NCBI GenBank assembly: GCA_963765205.1
Contig: CAVXVB010000005.1
Span: 512,001-576,000, forward strand
Origin: an uncultured Verrucomicrobiae bacterium
GTDB taxonomy: Bacteria; Verrucomicrobiota; Verrucomicrobiia; Opitutales; JABDGR01
Length of the DNA: 64,000 nt
Direction: 5' to 3'
Of this stretch, positions 26,146-41,308 are shown in pieces; within the stretch, counting starts at the first letter, position 1; the number at the start of each line of letters is the position of its first letter. Both the position numbers and the translations under genes were made by a program. The notes below the pieces were generated by a model. It saw nothing but the letters and a program-made list of their open reading frames with translations, was not told where the DNA came from and ran no database searches.

Positions 26146-26535
26146 TCACCCGCCGGCGAACACCGGGCGAAAACCCGCTTCCGTCAAAATGCGCGCGACC
26201 TCCGTTCGTTTGTCGCCTTGAATCTCGATGCGCCCCTCCTTCACCGTTCCGCCCGTTCCGCAGGCCCGCTGCATCGCCTTCGCGAGTTGTTCCTTTTCCG
26301 GCTGTCCGATGCCGACCCAGCCCGTCACCACCGTCACTGTTTTGCCGCCGCGTCCCGCCTTCTCCCGGATGATGTCCACCCGCCCGCGGCTCTTCCGGGC
26401 CGGTTTTGCCTCCGGTGCTCGTGGTGTTGGCGAATTAACGCGGGCAGTCGCCAGCTCTTCGCCCGACAGTCCGGCAAACGGATTTTGCCCAATGCTCTCT
26501 CCTCCATCGGTGCGAATGCGGCCACGTTCGTTCAT
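26146..26535 (-). CDS. yciH: SUI1/YciH translation-initiation-factor family protein
   Basis: GRGGKTVTVV, ACGTGGTVKEGRIEIQGDKR. Confidence 0.88.
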   Translation of the reverse strand: MNERGRIRTDGGESIGQNPFAGLSGEELATARVNSPTPRAPEAKPARKSRGRVDIIREKAGRGGKTVTVVTGWVGIGQPEKEQLAKAMQRACGTGGTVKEGRIEIQGDKRTEVARILTEAGFRPVFAGG

Positions 26536-26564: not shown

Positions 26565-28013
26565 CTACACCTTGTCCGGCACGACGAAGGGTTTGCGGTA
26601 TTCAGTGGTAAGGAGAGCGTTCGCGTCGTCGCTGTTCGTGAATTTTTCCGTCTTCGGGTCGAATTCCAGCGCCGCACCGAGGGTCGCGGACGTTTTGTCC
26701 AAATCCACGCCATTCAAGCTGAGGTGCGCCGCCATCCGCTCGAAGGCCTCGCTCATCGTCGCATTGCCCTTGATTTGCTCGCGGATGACGCCGCCCGGCT
26801 GGGCCTTGCCGACGCGATAGGAAATGTTGGCCAAATGGCAGAGCGAACTGGAAAGGAACCCCTCCGTGATGGGCGCGTGCAGGTCGCTCACTTTGCGGCT
26901 GCGCACGGCGGCGATGAAGTTTGCCTCATGGTTCGACCCCCCGGAAAAATCCTTCAGCACCTTGCCGTCTTTGTCGGTGGCCTGCGCGCTGGTGTAAGTC
27001 GCCGGCACGATGACCCGCCCGCCTTCACATTCCACAATCACCCCGACGCTCTGGTTGTAAACTTTGTCCATCAGGGTGCTGCCCAGCCGCACCGGCAGCC
27101 CATGCACTTCAAAAATGAGCGGCGCGTTTTTATAGTCATGGACGACGGCCAGCGTATTTGGCGTTTCCCCGTCGTCCACATAACTCAGCCGCCCGCCGAT
27201 GCTGAGCACGCGCGGCGAGAGCGCCAGCTCGCCGAGGAACCAGCGCGCGATGTCCATCTGATGCACGCCCTGGTTGCCGATGTCGCCGTTGCCGTAGGGC
27301 CATTGCCAGTGCCAGTCGTAATGCAGCTTCGTGCGGCGCAGCGGCGCCTGCGGCGCGGGGCCGAGCCACAAATCGTAGTTCACCGTTGGCGGCACCGGCT
27401 GCGGCCCGGTCGTCAGGCCGATGCTGGCGCGCCGCTTGTAGCACAGGCCGCGCGCGGAAAGGATTTTTCCAATATTGCCCGCGCGCACCCACGCCACCGC
27501 CTCGATGATGCTGTCACTCGAGCGGGCTTGCGAGCCGACCTGGATGATGCGCTGGTATTTGTCGGCGGCCTCGATGATTTTGCGCCCCTCCCAAATGTTG
27601 TGGCACACGGGCTTTTCCAGATACACGTCCTTGCCCGCCTGGCACGCCCAAATCGCCTGGAGCGCGTGCTGGTGGTTCGGCGTGACGATGAAGACGGCGT
27701 CAATGTTGCCCTTGGCCAGCATATCCCGGTAATCGGCGTAGGTGTTGATCGTGAGGCCCTGCGCGCGCAGCGTTTTCGCCATGCCGTCGAGCACCGCCGA
27801 ATCCACGTCGCACAGCGCCGTAATGCGCGCGCCGGCCACGCTGGCCAGCTCCTTGGTGATGATGTCCTTGCCGCGGTTGTTAAAGCCGACGATGCCCAGG
27901 CGCACGTCGCTGTTCGCGCCTGCCACCTGCGCCCACGAGCGCGGCCGCAGGGTCGCGGCGGCCGTCGCGACGCCGGTGGTCTTCAAAAATGCTCGCCTGG
28001 AAATCCGGGGCAT
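26565..28013 (-). CDS. Tat-exported Gfo/Idh/MocA oxidoreductase
   Basis: Tat signal SRRAFLK, TPNHQH, GKDVYLEKP, YDLWLGPAP, NQGVHQMD. Confidence 0.93.
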   Translation of the reverse strand: MPRISRRAFLKTTGVATAAATLRPRSWAQVAGANSDVRLGIVGFNNRGKDIITKELASVAGARITALCDVDSAVLDGMAKTLRAQGLTINTYADYRDMLAKGNIDAVFIVTPNHQHALQAIWACQAGKDVYLEKPVCHNIWEGRKIIEAADKYQRIIQVGSQARSSDSIIEAVAWVRAGNIGKILSARGLCYKRRASIGLTTGPQPVPPTVNYDLWLGPAPQAPLRRTKLHYDWHWQWPYGNGDIGNQGVHQMDIARWFLGELALSPRVLSIGGRLSYVDDGETPNTLAVVHDYKNAPLIFEVHGLPVRLGSTLMDKVYNQSVGVIVECEGGRVIVPATYTSAQATDKDGKVLKDFSGGSNHEANFIAAVRSRKVSDLHAPITEGFLSSSLCHLANISYRVGKAQPGGVIREQIKGNATMSEAFERMAAHLSLNGVDLDKTSATLGAALEFDPKTEKFTNSDDANALLTTEYRKPFVVPDKV

Positions 28014-28274: not shown

Positions 28275-28427
28275 TTTTTCACAAGTTATTCACCGCGGGG
28301 TTATTCGCAGCCGTGAATAAGTGGTTCATTGGTTTATTCACTTATTTTCATGCACTAAGCCCCTGTTGGCGGCGAACTTGCGAAGTTGTTCACATGGGTG
28401 AAATTTTTATTACGCCAATGCTTCACA
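28275..28427. promoter_or_regulatory. Cluster of DnaA-box-like 9-mers (candidate oriC or DnaA-binding locus)
   Basis: TTTTTCACA 28275, TTATTCACC 28286, TTATTCGCA 28301, reverse TTATTCACG 28312-28320, TTATTCACT 28334, TTGTTCACA 28386, TGCTTCACA 28419; AT-rich tract at ~28145-28185. Confidence 0.6.
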
Positions 28428-28463
28428 AGTTACTGGATGGGGAAGTTTTTTTGCGCCAACCCC

Positions 28464-28492
28464 TTGCGAAAATTTGCCCCCTATGCGATAGT
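28464..28492 (+). promoter_or_regulatory. Putative sigma70 promoter of the large ncRNA
   Basis: TTGCGA (28464-69), 17-bp spacer, extended -10 TGnGATAGT (28484-92). Confidence 0.55.
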
Positions 28493-28497
28493 GCGCA

Positions 28498-29370
28498 CGG
28501 TTCTTTGAGAGAACGGAAGGTTTGCGCAGGGGTTGCCTCGCAAGAGGTGGCCCACCGGCGGGGCCTTCTGGGATAATCCCGGGTAACCGGGGAAAGGTCG
28601 GGGTTAGTTGGTAGTCCCGGCCCCTCGCGGTCAGTCCCCATCTTCGGATGACGGACGCCCGAGGCATGTTTCACCCCTCCCGCCTTGGCGAGTCGCATCG
28701 CCGGGGTTCCTATTGCGACAAAAGGGAGGCGGCGGCCAGGTGCGCAAACGAATGCGCCACCAAGCCGAATGAGGACTGTGGCTGGTTCGTAGCCGCAGTC
28801 AACACAGGGTGACCCCAAGGATTGGGTCAAATTTGACTACCCTGCATACCAATCTGCCGGACACGGAGTCACGAGGGCACCTCGTGGGAAGGCTTTTCCC
28901 GGATGGGAAGAGTACGTAAAGCTCCGGGCCAGGCGGGAGGCGCGACGGTTCCAGAAGCGGGAGCCGCCCGGCCTGCATCACAGCCGTGGGCGCGCAAATA
29001 ACGCGTCGGCGGCCTGCACCATCAAATGTCCATTGAGGGATAAGAGGCAAGACCCGTACCCTTCAGGCCAACGCTCCGGGGGCAGTTCCCGGGGGCCGAC
29101 CTGAAGGACAGCGGTGACGAGGCTGTGTCGCAGCAGTCTCACCACCATGTGCGGCGCACTTCCCCGGCAGGGGATGGGCGAACCGTGCTGAAAGGCCTCA
29201 CCCAACAATCGCCGGGAGCAATCCGGGCGGCGGTCCTGCCAAGAGACCGATAATTCCGCGTTGCCGCGGGAACTGGCGTCGAGGAGCCGGCCGCCCACCT
29301 GCGAAGGTGCGAGCGCCCAAGGACCGGCGAATGGGAAAGAGCGTGTGGCGAGCGCCCACCCCCGTTTTTA
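28498..29370 (+). ncRNA. Large (~870-900 nt) highly structured non-coding RNA candidate
   Basis: No credible ORF; many stems with GCAA, GUAA, GCGA and cUUCGg loops, long-range helices, flanked by promoter, boxA-like site and terminator. Ends approximate. Confidence 0.75.
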
Positions 29371-29410
29371 GGCCCCGGAAGTTGCAAAACCTCCGGGGTC
29401 TTTTAATTTT
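29370..29410 (+). terminator. Rho-independent terminator
   Basis: ggccccggaagttgcaaaacctccggggtc followed by ttttaatttt. Confidence 0.8.
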
Positions 29411-29461
29411 GGCTGTTTCATTCGCTTGCCCGCCGCGCGGTTTTGCGCTTTTCCTTCTTCC

Positions 29462-30499
29462 ATGTCCGTTGACGCAACTAAGACCGCCCCCAGCGATGCT
29501 CCCCCCGCCCGCAAGGTCATCCTCACCTGCGCGCAGCCGACGGGGGCGCTGCATTTGGGCAATTACCTGGGGGCCGTCCAGAACTGGCGGCGAATGCAGG
29601 ATGACTACGAGTGCTACTTCGGCGTCGTAGATATGCACGCCATCACCCTGCCGTATGAGCCGGCCAAACTGCGGGCCTCCACGCTGGAACTGGTCGCGTG
29701 GTATATCGCCTGCGGACTCGATCCGGCCAAGGCGCATTTCTTTATCCAATCCCATGTCATCGGCCATGCCGAACTGGCCTGGGTGCTCGGTTGTTTGTGT
29801 CCGCTGGGCCAACTCGAGCGCATGACGCAGTTCAAGGACAAGTCCGCCAAGCAGGAGAGCATCGGCGCCGGACTGCTCTATTACCCGGTGCTGATGGCGG
29901 CGGACATCCTGCTCTATAATGCCGACGCCGTGCCCGTGGGCGAGGATCAGAAACAGCACCTCGAACTCGCGCGCGACCTCGCCGAAAAATTCAACCGCAC
30001 CTATTCTCCGACCTTCAAGGTGCCCGAGCCGTTTATCGCCAAGACCGGCGCACGCATCGCCTCGCTCGCGAACCCGGAGAAAAAAATGTCCAAGTCCGAC
30101 GAAGACCCCTCCGGCACGCTTTACCTGAACGACCCGCCCGCGGTGTTGCGCAAAAAAATCATGTCGGCCGTCACCGACTCCGGCGGCGAAGTTGTGGCGC
30201 GCGACGACAAGCCCGGCGTGACGAATTTGCTGCACATCCTCAGTGCCGTCACCGGCCGTGCGCTGTCGGAACTCGAAGCTGAATTTGCGGGCCAAGGCTA
30301 TGGTGCGTTTAAAGGCGCGGTCGCCGTTGCCGTCATCGCCACGCTCGAGCCCGTGCAGAAAAAATACGCCGAGTTGATGGCGAGCAAGGATCACTTGCTC
30401 GAAGTCATCAAAACCGGTGGCGACGTTGCGCAGAAGACGGCCTACAAAACCCTCGCCAAAGTTTACCGCAAAGTCGGCTTCCTCGAACGCGCGCGATAA
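29462..30499 (+). CDS. trpS: Tryptophan--tRNA ligase
   Basis: QPTGALHLGNYLGA, YPVLMAADILLY, VPVGEDQKQHLE, KMSKS. Confidence 0.98.
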   Translation: MSVDATKTAPSDAPPARKVILTCAQPTGALHLGNYLGAVQNWRRMQDDYECYFGVVDMHAITLPYEPAKLRASTLELVAWYIACGLDPAKAHFFIQSHVIGHAELAWVLGCLCPLGQLERMTQFKDKSAKQESIGAGLLYYPVLMAADILLYNADAVPVGEDQKQHLELARDLAEKFNRTYSPTFKVPEPFIAKTGARIASLANPEKKMSKSDEDPSGTLYLNDPPAVLRKKIMSAVTDSGGEVVARDDKPGVTNLLHILSAVTGRALSELEAEFAGQGYGAFKGAVAVAVIATLEPVQKKYAELMASKDHLLEVIKTGGDVAQKTAYKTLAKVYRKVGFLERAR

Positions 30500-38728: not shown

Positions 38729-38995
38729 CAAACTCTTGCCCCCTTCAAAAGGGGCTGCACCGCATGGTCTGGCTGAGGCCGGGACTCCATGAAAACGGCG
38801 CCGAATTTCAGCGTTCTTTGAAATTTTATTTGTGCGATTGAGCGGATTCTCGTTCAATTGATTTAAATAGCCCAGTGAACATGCGATGGCGAAGGGCATG
38901 TTCACTTGTAAAAGTAAACGTGACTAGAACTATCGCAGTGTTCACTAGGTTCTGTTAGTCCTGAATCACCAGATTTAGGACTTTCCGAAGAATTA

Positions 38996-40553
<1,558 letters not shown>

Positions 40554-40917
40554 TAAGGAGAAGTCCCGTTTCCTTGGGGAACGTTGAACCTCACTGGTTC
40601 AACCAAGCCCCGATGAACTGTAGGGACATACGGTCGAATTCCCCACGCTGCCGGCTCACGCCGGCAAGGTGGGGAACAACGAGATAATCTCTCAATCGCA
40701 CAAATTAAATTTCGGGAACGCACCCCCGCCGCGCGCGCAAGCGCCGCGCCGGGACTCGTTCTTTGAAAGTCTATTCCGAGTACGACCAGCGGCCTGGTCG
40801 GCGAATTAGGATTTAAGATTTATGATTTAGGAAGGTGGACGGTATTGGTGGGCGGTGTCATCCGCGCCGGCGCTGGCCACTTCTTAATTCTTAAATCATC
40901 CTTTTTAATTCCTTATC

Positions 40918-41173: not shown

Positions 41174-41308
41174 TTTTTTGGATCAACTCTCGGAATACAC
41201 TTTTTAGACGAAAACACTTTTCGTTCTTTGACAGTTTAATGCATTGTGGGAAAGTCATTGAGTAATCTAGTAGATCAAACCTGACAATACGATTTAATAC
41301 GGCGTTGG

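What the first reader, a model, noticed from the sequence alone, without database searches (positions are those of the whole stretch)
28498..29410. About 900-nt, densely folded candidate RNA gene between a Gfo oxidoreductase and trpS
Seen: no protein-like ORF, yet almost continuous pairing potential on the + strand. Examples: gggttgcctc-GCAA-gaggtggccc (28530-28553); tcccgg-GTAA-ccgggg (28577-28592); catc-TTCG-gatg (28639-28650); gactgtggct/agccgcagtc (28774-28800); cagggt/accctg (28805-28844); cacgagg/cctcgtg and cttttccc/gggaagag enclosed by cggag/ctccg (28864-28926); ccttcagg/cctgaagg (29060-29107); gga-GCAA-tcc (~29216-29224); cacct-GCGA-aggtg (29296-29309). A perfect 9-bp long-range helix gtttgcgca (28520)/tgcgcaaac (28741) closes a ~210-nt multibranch domain. 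Many mismatches are G-U on this strand, and the unit is bounded by a promoter and an intrinsic terminator. Knowledge: GNRA/UUCG loops and multistem junctions typify large functional RNAs; I find no tmRNA, RNase P or canonical group II domain V signature. Inference: a stand-alone large ncRNA of unknown function. From memory the MISL motif (roughly 800 nt) was reported in Verrucomicrobia, so this may be a MISL member or a new class.
Basis: partly seen in the sequence, partly recalled or inferred. Interest (0 to 1): 0.92.

Follow-up and report, generated by a model that had tools for sequence, protein, structure and literature searches.

The report
Known MISL RNA gene, rRNA-style leader
The gene-free stretch encodes MISL RNA, a large folded RNA of Verrucomicrobia that is already catalogued but has no known job; its start carries the same short signal as this bacterium's ribosomal RNA and tmRNA genes, and binding-site-like sequences for the replication initiator DnaA sit in front of its promoter.

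Summary
Window 28571-29356 (+) is a full-length match to Rfam MISL (RF03079): 348.3 bits against a gathering score of 274.6, model 1-751/751. So the RNA call is right and the 'new class' option falls. The scan had already found MISL on other DNA (41 notes, at least 33 genomes).

Its 9-bp closing helix is not conserved (54-66% paired).

The transcription unit is longer than the Rfam model, about 28499-29410:
- A conserved promoter.
- A 15-nt motif, GTTCTTTGAGAGAAC, whose first 11 bases fit the boxA word of this genome's own rRNA operon and tmRNA leader.
- A covarying stem, P0.
- The Rfam core.
- An intrinsic terminator.

Part of the motif (28506-28510) appears to pair with 28669-28673. The one variable pair is canonical in 87 of 99 distinct sequences. 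A phylogeny-aware test is underpowered.

DnaA-box-like sites cluster upstream in 36 of 36 loci. They are not at a GC-skew switch in a complete relative.

Contigs of four metatranscriptomes cover only the RNA.

Function is unknown. My best reading is a DnaA-controlled, Nus-antiterminated, abundant trans-acting RNA.

The parts
28275..28394 (.). Cluster of six DnaA-box-like sites, each one mismatch from TTATNCACA: 28275+, 28286+, 28301+, 28312-, 28334+, 28386+. It lies 70-190 nt upstream of the -35.
   Evidence: 6 of the window's 25 matches lie in these 120 nt; it is the densest such cluster in the 4.02-Mb assembly (6 sites; the next best has 4); the cluster is conserved upstream of MISL in 36 of 36 loci, with 126 sites against 12.0 +/- 3.1 in dinucleotide shuffles; the region upstream of dnaA has the same TTTTNCACA-N2-TTATTCAC pair at 11-nt phasing.
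28464..28492 (+). Sigma-70-type promoter-like site: -35 TTGCGA (28464-28469), 17-nt spacer, -10 GATAGT (28487-28492). The predicted start is about 28499-28500.
   Evidence: It scores 8 of 12 and falls below the scan threshold. A -35/-10 pair of at least 8 of 12, with the -10 ending 6-9 nt before the motif, is found in 28 of 36 loci. The start site is inferred, not mapped.
28500..28514 (+). Conserved 5' motif GTTCTTTGAGAGAAC. Its first 11 nt fit the local boxA word GYTCTTTGANA. It can also form a small hairpin (GUUC/GAAC).
   Evidence: G, T, T, C, T, T, G, A, A are invariant in 21 of 21 aligned loci; found with at most 2 mismatches in 35 of 36 loci; the same word occurs in the rrn leader and spacers of this genome and of three relatives; the same word lies upstream of tmRNA; the hairpin is 97.6% paired but shows no change on both sides.
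28506..28510 (+). 5' strand (UGAGA) of a proposed long-range, pseudoknot-like helix.
   Evidence: (RNAalifold): 98.1% of cells paired; the variable pair 28509/28670 is canonical in 34 of 34 and then 87 of 99 distinct sequences, with six pair types.
28669..28673 (+). 3' strand (UUUCA, inside GGCAUGUUUCACC) of the same helix. This stretch is drawn single-stranded in the Rfam consensus.
   Evidence: One search shows the consensus line unpaired here.
28515..28569 (+). P0: a variable stem-loop domain of the 5' extension, with a GCAA-capped hairpin at 28530-28553. It lies outside the Rfam model.
   Evidence: fold; the base of the stem (28515-28518 with 28566-28569) is 88% paired, with changes on both sides in 3 of 4 pairs.
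28571..29356 (+). MISL RNA core as modelled by Rfam RF03079.
   Evidence: 348.3 bits, gathering score 274.6, model 1-751 of 751, single copy in the genome.
29370..29410 (+). Intrinsic terminator: hairpin 29370-29401 followed by UUUAAUUUU.
   Evidence: -23.1 kcal/mol, z = -3.25; a hairpin plus T-run follows the model end in 33 of the 34 relatives with enough flank.

Best explanation
This is the genome's single gene for MISL RNA (Rfam RF03079), a stand-alone structured RNA of about 0.85-0.9 kb.

Shown:
- Family membership.
- Structure-consistent conservation.
- RNA-only coverage in metatranscriptomes.
- A conserved 5' extension of about 72 nt and a terminator.

Inferred mechanism of expression:
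- A sigma-70-type promoter sits behind a conserved cluster of DnaA-box-like sites, so DnaA would control or tune transcription.
- The transcript starts with a boxA-type word. This is the same word that heads the rRNA leader and spacers and the tmRNA leader in this order.
- That word would recruit NusB/NusE and make RNA polymerase resistant to Rho on this long untranslated RNA.
- Because boxA stays tethered to the polymerase, the 5' end would be held close. It could then be handed over to pair with UNUCA about 160 nt downstream, closing the first domain.
- Transcription ends at the intrinsic terminator. The ends may then be trimmed.

Inferred role: an abundant, stable, trans-acting RNA, either a ribonucleoprotein scaffold or a catalytic RNA. 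The role itself is not known. No protein partner is suggested by gene neighbourhood.
For: - Membership.
- Relatives: 17 of 41, 9 of 151 and 39 of 151 genomes match in three samples (relatives, phylum, order). 14, 9 and 29 of these score over the cut-off.
- Taxa: named hosts are Opitutaceae, Lacunisphaera, Opitutus, Horticoccus, Oleiharenicola, Cephaloticoccus and Limisphaera.
- Expression: 24 RNA runs from 19 studies hold the sequence. Contigs of 4 laid runs cover 28515-29358 only, with zero depth on both flanks in all 4, and some pieces carry 0 differences.
- boxA word in rRNA: GTTCTTTGA[A/C]A occurs three times in the window's rrn operon. G[T/C]TCTTTGA[A/C]A occurs in the rrn operons of 3 relatives.
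- boxA word in tmRNA: a perfect GTTCTTTGAGA lies 83 nt before tmRNA here, and a 0-1 mismatch copy lies before tmRNA in 4 of 4 relatives. RNase P (4 mismatches) and 6S (3 mismatches) lack it.
- Genome-wide, the 11-mer occurs only 10 times: 3 in rrn, 1 at MISL, 1 at tmRNA.
- Literature: boxA consensus GYTCTTTAANA, with C4 and T6 critical, and a survey that did not consider non-coding RNAs (PMC5725501, passages). B. subtilis rrn boxA AUGAUCUUUGAAA binds NusB (PMC13753749, passages).
- DnaA boxes.
- Long-range helix.
- Gene neighbours are not conserved.
Against: - No binding of NusB/NusE or DnaA has been shown.
- The start site is predicted only.
- No RNA contig laid covers 28499-28514. One contig of a near relative joins an Illumina adapter directly to 28515. 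The motif could therefore be absent from the abundant form, or that could be a fragmentation artefact.
- Position 5 of the motif varies (T, C or A) in MISL. It is T in every rrn and tmRNA copy seen.
- The six loci of family f22 have no good sigma-70 promoter next to the motif, scoring 4-7 of 12.
- Part of the motif's conservation is explained by RNA pairing rather than by protein binding.
- The variable pair is non-canonical in 12 of 99 distinct sequences: U.C 9, A.C 2, A.A 1.
- The phylogeny-aware test has only 3 well-supported independent contrasts. All 3 agree, but p = 0.25.
- None of the six DnaA-like sites in this window is a perfect TTATNCACA.
Confidence: 0.6

Rival explanations
1. The 5' motif is purely an RNA-structure element, a small hairpin whose loop pairs with the core. 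Its likeness to boxA is coincidence or shared ancestry without Nus factor binding.
For: - The loop-to-core pairing covaries: 34 of 34, then 87 of 99 distinct sequences.
- GUUC/GAAC can pair, with 97.6% of cells paired.
- The AGAAC half is conserved in MISL but not in the rrn or tmRNA copies.
- Position 5 departs from the rrn word.
Against: - The hairpin stem shows no change on both sides, while neighbouring helices covary freely. G28500 stays invariant even where its supposed partner changes.
- The same 9-11 nt word stands in the rrn leader, the rrn spacers and the tmRNA leaders, none of which has the MISL core to pair with.
Confidence: 0.25
2. The DnaA-box cluster is primarily a chromosomal DnaA element: an origin, or a titration or reactivation site of the datA/DARS kind. 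MISL merely lies beside it, or its transcription modulates it.
For: - It is the densest DnaA-box-like cluster in the assembly.
- There is a shallow local minimum of cumulative GC skew near it on contig C5.
- In two complete relatives MISL lies 155 kb and 281 kb from dnaA.
Against: - In the complete genome G098, 400 kb holding both dnaA and MISL has uniformly negative skew with no switch.
- The own-genome skew is noisy, with several minima on other contigs.
- dnaA is on another contig.
- The boxes keep a fixed distance and orientation to the MISL promoter in 36 of 36 loci while the flanking genes change. That fits a promoter element better.
Confidence: 0.1
3. It is a cis-acting leader, for example a T-box-like control region, of the downstream tryptophanyl-tRNA synthetase gene.
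For: It has the same strand as the synthetase gene and lies about 70 nt upstream of it. Aminoacyl-tRNA synthetase genes flank MISL in two other loci, L012 and L016.
Against: - A strong terminator separates the two.
- RNA contigs stop before the gene.
- The W/Y synthetase neighbour occurs in only 1 of the 23 loci examined.
- No T-box or other leader family matches.
Confidence: 0.01
4. It is a new RNA class that only resembles MISL.
For: The score (348 bits) is in the lower half of the family range seen here, 119-535 bits. A 5' extension lies outside the model.
Against: The match is full-length and above the curated cut-off. The same extension is present in the best-scoring members.
Confidence: 0.01

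Closest known systems
MISL RNA (Rfam RF03079, typed 'Gene; sRNA')
   Same: Full-length match over the curated cut-off, the same helices, the same phylum, and a stand-alone gene with its own promoter and terminator.
   Different: Nothing at the level of the core. The Rfam model starts at GGAUAAU (28571). It omits about 72 nt of conserved 5' sequence (motif plus P0) and the pairing of that motif with a stretch the consensus draws as unpaired. From recall, not checked here: the family stems from the 2017 survey of 224 candidate RNAs. Its main text does not mention MISL and its supplement could not be read.
boxA of rRNA operon leaders and spacers (NusB-NusE site of the rRNA antitermination complex)
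   Same: An 11 of 11 fit to this genome's own rrn word GYTCTTTGANA. C4 and T6 are kept. The word is on the sense strand, close behind a promoter, and heads a long untranslated RNA (PMC5725501 and PMC13753749, passages).
   Different: It lies at about +1 rather than tens of nt into a leader. No boxB or boxC partner is conserved. It is followed by AGAAC and partly base-paired with the RNA it heads. Binding is untested.
DnaA-box-controlled promoters and DnaA-box clusters (dnaA's own promoter; intergenic DnaA-box clusters; from recall)
   Same: Several phased sites close to TTATNCACA, and the same pair arrangement as upstream of this genome's dnaA.
   Different: They precede a non-coding RNA gene. 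All six sites here have one mismatch. Binding and its direction of effect are untested.
Other large ornate bacterial RNAs of unknown or recently glimpsed function (OLE, GOLLD, ROOL, raiA)
   Same: Size, dense conserved structure, and no coding role. GOLLD, ROOL and OLE were solved as RNA-only assemblies (10.1101/2024.12.08.627333, abstract as listed). raiA is abundant and its function is unknown (PMC12968392, abstract as listed).
   Different: No sequence or model match to any of them. MISL is chromosomal, mostly single-copy and confined to Verrucomicrobiota in the samples searched.

Membership tests
MISL RNA (RF03079) | Covariance-model score at or above the curated gathering score | tested here: met
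   348.3 bits against 274.6, E 1.5e-103.
MISL RNA (RF03079) | Match spans the whole model | tested here: met
   Model positions 1-751 of 751, not truncated.
MISL RNA (RF03079) | Consensus helices are formed by this sequence | tested here: met
   The cmscan alignment shows most helices formed. Non-standard pairs are concentrated in the weakly aligned middle part, window about 28905-28980.
MISL RNA (RF03079) | Occurs in Verrucomicrobiota as a stand-alone gene | tested here: met
   Named records with the conserved 5' core word are Opitutales/Opitutaceae and other Verrucomicrobiota. Flanking genes vary. The 14 control genomes give 0 matches.
boxA (NusB-NusE binding word) | Sequence fits the organism's own rRNA boxA | tested here: met
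   GTTCTTTGAGA against the rrn copies GTTCTTTGAAA and GTTCTTTGACA of the same window. It also fits the rrn copies of three relatives.
boxA (NusB-NusE binding word) | Lies in the transcribed leader, sense strand | tested here: inconclusive
   The promoter position predicts a start at about 28499. The laid RNA contigs begin at 28515 or later on this sequence, although relatives' contigs carry upstream extensions.
boxA (NusB-NusE binding word) | Bound by NusB/NusE and confers resistance to termination | not testable with these tools
   Needs binding and read-through assays.
DnaA box cluster | Several sites close to TTATNCACA, more than chance | tested here: met
   6 sites in 120 nt here. Across 36 loci, 126 sites against 12.0 +/- 3.1 in shuffles.
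DnaA box cluster | Same site type upstream of dnaA in the same genome | tested here: met
   TTTTCCACA and TTATTCACA lie 11 nt apart upstream of dnaA.
DnaA box cluster | Bound by DnaA | not testable with these tools
   Needs footprinting or ChIP.
Chromosomal origin (oriC) | Coincides with a GC-skew switch | tested here: not met
   No switch in the 400 kb around MISL and dnaA in the complete genome G098. The own-genome signal is shallow and noisy.

The most novel reading that the evidence does not exclude
MISL is the RNA output of a DnaA-sensing promoter. It is made rRNA-style under Nus-factor control, together with rRNA and tmRNA, so its level reports the cell's readiness to start replication and to grow. 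It would act back on replication, ribosome making or translation rescue. The boxA word would double as one strand of a long-range helix, so the antitermination complex would also act as the folding chaperone of this RNA.
Probability: 0.15. Interest if true: 0.8.

Novelty: new member of a known kind. Interest (0 to 1): 0.35.

Why it matters
In itself this is an ordinary member of a catalogued family, so the flagged novelty is gone. What remains of interest belongs to the whole family.

MISL is one of the few large, intricately folded bacterial RNAs with no known function. Three features give handles for experiments:
- A DnaA-box promoter region.
- A boxA-type start shared with rRNA and tmRNA.
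- A leader-to-core pairing that the Rfam model leaves out.

None of these is in print in the library searched. 'MISL RNA' appears in 3 held papers (1 distinct work listed), a structure-probing data set. 'MISL' with 'Verrucomicrobia' gave 0 papers. 'MISL' with GOLLD or ROOL gave none that holds MISL. Earlier agents of this scan did note the DnaA boxes and the rRNA-style leader on other genomes.

Tried and rejected
- Origin of replication at MISL: rejected for G098 by GC skew. It stays unresolved but unlikely in the own genome.
- Conserved protein partner by neighbourhood: none. I scanned 57 flanking frames of 23 loci. Only family f1 keeps the oxidoreductase.
- Other boxA-like 11-mers in intergenic-looking DNA (G000 C2:175240 and C5:329748): no Rfam match and no clear downstream gene.
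- Weinberg 2017: the main text has no mention of MISL and the supplement could not be read. The family's original description was therefore not seen.
- Consensus promoter/terminator scan: it missed both real signals.
- Phylogeny-aware test of the covarying pair: underpowered.
- Parts of the stretch without RNA-contig cover (28200-28481 and 29375-29600 in all four runs; 28482-28514 on this exact sequence): I use these only as a hint that the runs hold RNA rather than DNA.
- Contig ends at 29358 in two studies, and one adapter junction at 28515: weak hints of processed ends only.

Full report
**What is there**

Infernal against all 4227 Rfam families finds one match in the flagged interval. It is MISL (RF03079) at 28571-29356 on the + strand, with 348.3 bits against a gathering score of 274.6 and E 1.5e-103. 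The match covers model positions 1-751 of 751. A permissive rescan of 28300-29500 adds only a chance 18.9-bit NsiR1 match on the terminator.

The gene is single-copy in the 4.02-Mb assembly. The + strand folds at -445.3 kcal/mol, with z = -6.06 against 20 shuffles. The - strand gives z = -3.55.

The flanks are a TAT-signal GFO/IDH/MocA oxidoreductase (26565-28013, -) and a class I W/Y tRNA synthetase (29426-30499, +).

Eight of the listed hairpins coincide with helices of the Rfam consensus. The ninth (28530-28553) lies in a 5' extension and folds as described.

The terminator is real: stem 29370-29401, then UUUAAUUUU, at -23.1 kcal/mol. The simple scan missed it.

The 9-bp helix 28520/28741 is present here. 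In 21 aligned relatives its two halves pair in only 53.8% and 65.9% of cells. It also overlaps the local hairpin of the consensus. The outer part of that hairpin is 85% paired, with changes on both sides in 6 of 7 pairs.

**Distribution**

| Sample | Genomes with a match | Over the cut-off |
|---|---|---|
| Relatives | 17 of 41 | 14 |
| Even sample of the phylum | 9 of 151 | 9 |
| Sample of the order | 39 of 151 | 29 |

- In the phylum sample, 8 of the 9 matching genomes are in the window's order.
- In the order sample, some genomes hold two copies, and one holds an extra copy of the 3' half only.
- An exact scan of named genomes with the conserved 5' word returned at least 119 stretches. They come from Opitutaceae, Opitutales, Lacunisphaera, Opitutus, Horticoccus, Oleiharenicola, Cephaloticoccus, Limisphaera and unclassified Verrucomicrobiota.
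- The 14 control genomes never match.
- Flanking genes are not conserved beyond the window's own family. I scanned 57 frames from 23 loci.

**The transcription unit is longer than the Rfam model**

Between 39 and 158 nt upstream of the model start, 35 of 36 loci carry GTTC[T/C/A]TTGA-N-AGAAC with at most two mismatches. In an alignment of 21 loci, nine of its letters are invariant.

A -35/-10 pair scoring at least 8 of 12 ends 6-9 nt before the motif in 28 of 36 loci. This predicts a start at about the motif's first G, window 28499-28500. The six loci of family f22 lack such a promoter.

Between the motif and the model start lies a variable stem, P0. Its base (28515-28518 with 28566-28569) is 88% paired, with changes on both sides in 3 of 4 pairs.

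Downstream, 33 of the 34 loci with enough flank have a hairpin plus T-run within about 25 nt of the model end. The exception is L017, a weak 119.6-bit hit.

**The motif is the local boxA word**

- The window's own rRNA operon carries GTTCTTTGAAA in the leader (38813).
- It carries GTTCTTTGAAA in the 16S-tRNA spacer (40758).
- It carries GTTCTTTGACA in the tRNA-23S spacer (41224).
- Three relatives have G[T/C]TCTTTGA[A/C]A 120-138 nt before 16S and again in the spacer.

The published gamma-proteobacterial consensus is GYTCTTTAANA, with positions 4 and 6 critical. That survey states it did not consider non-coding RNAs (PMC5725501, passages). The B. subtilis rrn word AUGAUCUUUGAAA binds NusB (PMC13753749, passages). 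NusB-NusE reads 8 nt (PMC3177189, abstract and passages).

In the whole genome GTTCTTTGA occurs 29 times, against about 13 expected from composition. The 11-mer occurs 10 times: three in rrn, one at MISL and one 83 nt upstream of tmRNA. tmRNA genes of 4 of 4 relatives with a match also have the word, with 0-1 mismatch, 40-117 nt upstream. RNase P RNA and 6S RNA do not: their best matches have 4 and 3 mismatches.

The word therefore heads three kinds of long or stable untranslated RNA in this order. I take this as the best support for a Nus-factor signal. No binding is shown.

**The motif also pairs with the core**

RNAalifold on the 21-locus alignment pairs UGANA (window 28506-28510) with UNUCA (28669-28673). 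The latter lies inside GGCAUGUUUCACC, which the Rfam consensus leaves unpaired. 98.1% of cells pair.

Four of the five pairs hardly vary. The fifth (28509 with 28670) does vary:

| Set | Canonical | Pair types | Non-pairs |
|---|---|---|---|
| Scorable loci from the genome search | 34 of 34 | A-U 13, U-A 7, G.U 6, C-G 5, U.G 2, G-C 1 | none |
| Union with named genomes (Opitutaceae-heavy), distinct sequences | 87 of 99 | U-A 49, A-U 19, U.G 7, C-G 6, G.U 5, G-C 1 | U.C 9, A.C 2, A.A 1 |

Shuffling partners in the larger set gives 49.6 +/- 4.0 canonical pairs.

On a tree of 33 core sequences, the contrasts in which the 5' base switches between purine and pyrimidine number 3 on well-supported branches and 6 on all branches. 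The 3 well-supported contrasts all go the way pairing predicts, but that number cannot reach significance (p = 0.25).

The small hairpin GUUC/GAAC is 97.6% paired but never changes on both sides. Its first G stays fixed even where its partner changes.

So the long-range helix is well supported but not proven. Structure alone does not explain why GTTC..TTG is invariant.

**DnaA-box-like sites**

Six of the window's 25 matches to TTATNCACA (at most one mismatch) lie in 28275-28394. This is the densest such cluster in the assembly.

In the 390 nt from -450 to -60 of the model start:
- 36 of 36 loci have at least one site, and 34 of 36 have at least two.
- The total is 126 sites, against 12.0 +/- 3.1 in dinucleotide shuffles (largest 20 of 200).
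- 108 of the 126 are on the RNA strand.

The region upstream of this genome's dnaA has the same two-site arrangement.

dnaA lies on another contig. In complete relatives it is 155, 281 and 563 kb from MISL.

The own contig shows a shallow skew minimum near MISL, but other contigs show several minima. In the complete genome G098, 400 kb containing both dnaA and MISL has uniformly negative skew.

I therefore read the boxes as a promoter-linked DnaA element, not as the origin.

**Expression**

Twenty-four RNA runs from 19 studies (wetland, soil, root, litter) hold part of the stretch. I laid contigs of four runs from four studies. They cover 28515-29358 and nothing on either flank, and several pieces match without a difference. 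This argues for RNA rather than contaminating DNA.

Contigs cannot give levels or true ends. Two studies' contigs stop at 29358, one of them followed by adapter sequence. One contig of a near relative has adapter sequence directly before 28515. These are weak hints of trimmed ends, the latter just after the motif.

**Earlier notes of this scan**

The notes report MISL on at least 33 other genomes, with the rRNA-style leader and the DnaA boxes. I re-tested both on my own loci and they hold. No note mentions the leader-to-core pairing or the tmRNA leader word.

**Verdict**

This is a regular member of a known family. The function remains unknown. I give the proposed mode of expression (DnaA-tuned promoter, boxA-led antitermination and folding aid, intrinsic termination) about even odds as a whole. 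Family membership is near certain.

Noticed in passing
G000 C9:790160 (- strand), 83 nt upstream of tmRNA (C9:789735-790077); relatives L182-L185: tmRNA genes of this order carry the rRNA boxA word in their leaders. GTTCTTTGAGA is perfect here, and 4 of 4 relatives have a copy with 0-1 mismatch at -40 to -117. RNase P RNA and 6S RNA do not carry it.
   Followed up: partly
window 38813-38823, 40758-40768, 41224-41234: Three boxA copies in the rRNA operon: leader, 16S-tRNA spacer and tRNA-23S spacer. The leader copy is followed by a conserved TTTGTGCGATT, also seen in three relatives, which is a possible boxC-like element.
   Followed up: partly
G259:C2:1594012-1594372: A large genome holds, besides a full-length MISL, a second match to model positions 389-750 only. 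It lies inside a long contig, so a free-standing 3' half may exist.
   Followed up: no
G274 and G242: Two full-length MISL copies per genome on different contigs. In G274 they have identical scores.
   Followed up: no
G000 C8:111037-111332 and C8:84163-84222: The next densest DnaA-box-like clusters of the assembly, with 4 sites each. The first includes a perfect TTATCCACA and lies at the cumulative GC-skew minimum of contig C8, so it is a candidate for the real origin.
   Followed up: partly
L002, L018-L022 (family f22), 60-70 nt upstream of the motif: These loci lack a sigma-70-like promoter next to the motif. They share instead a conserved GTGAAGAAGTTGT.AAGAACAAA...CTTC block further upstream, which overlaps DnaA-box-like sites.
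   Followed up: no
G000 C2:175240 (-) and C5:329748 (+): Two further perfect 11-mer boxA-like words in AT-rich, intergenic-looking DNA. There is no Rfam match within 4 kb and no obvious downstream gene.
   Followed up: partly
window 26146-26535 (-): A SUI1/translation initiation factor 1-like ORF lies next to the oxidoreductase.
   Followed up: no
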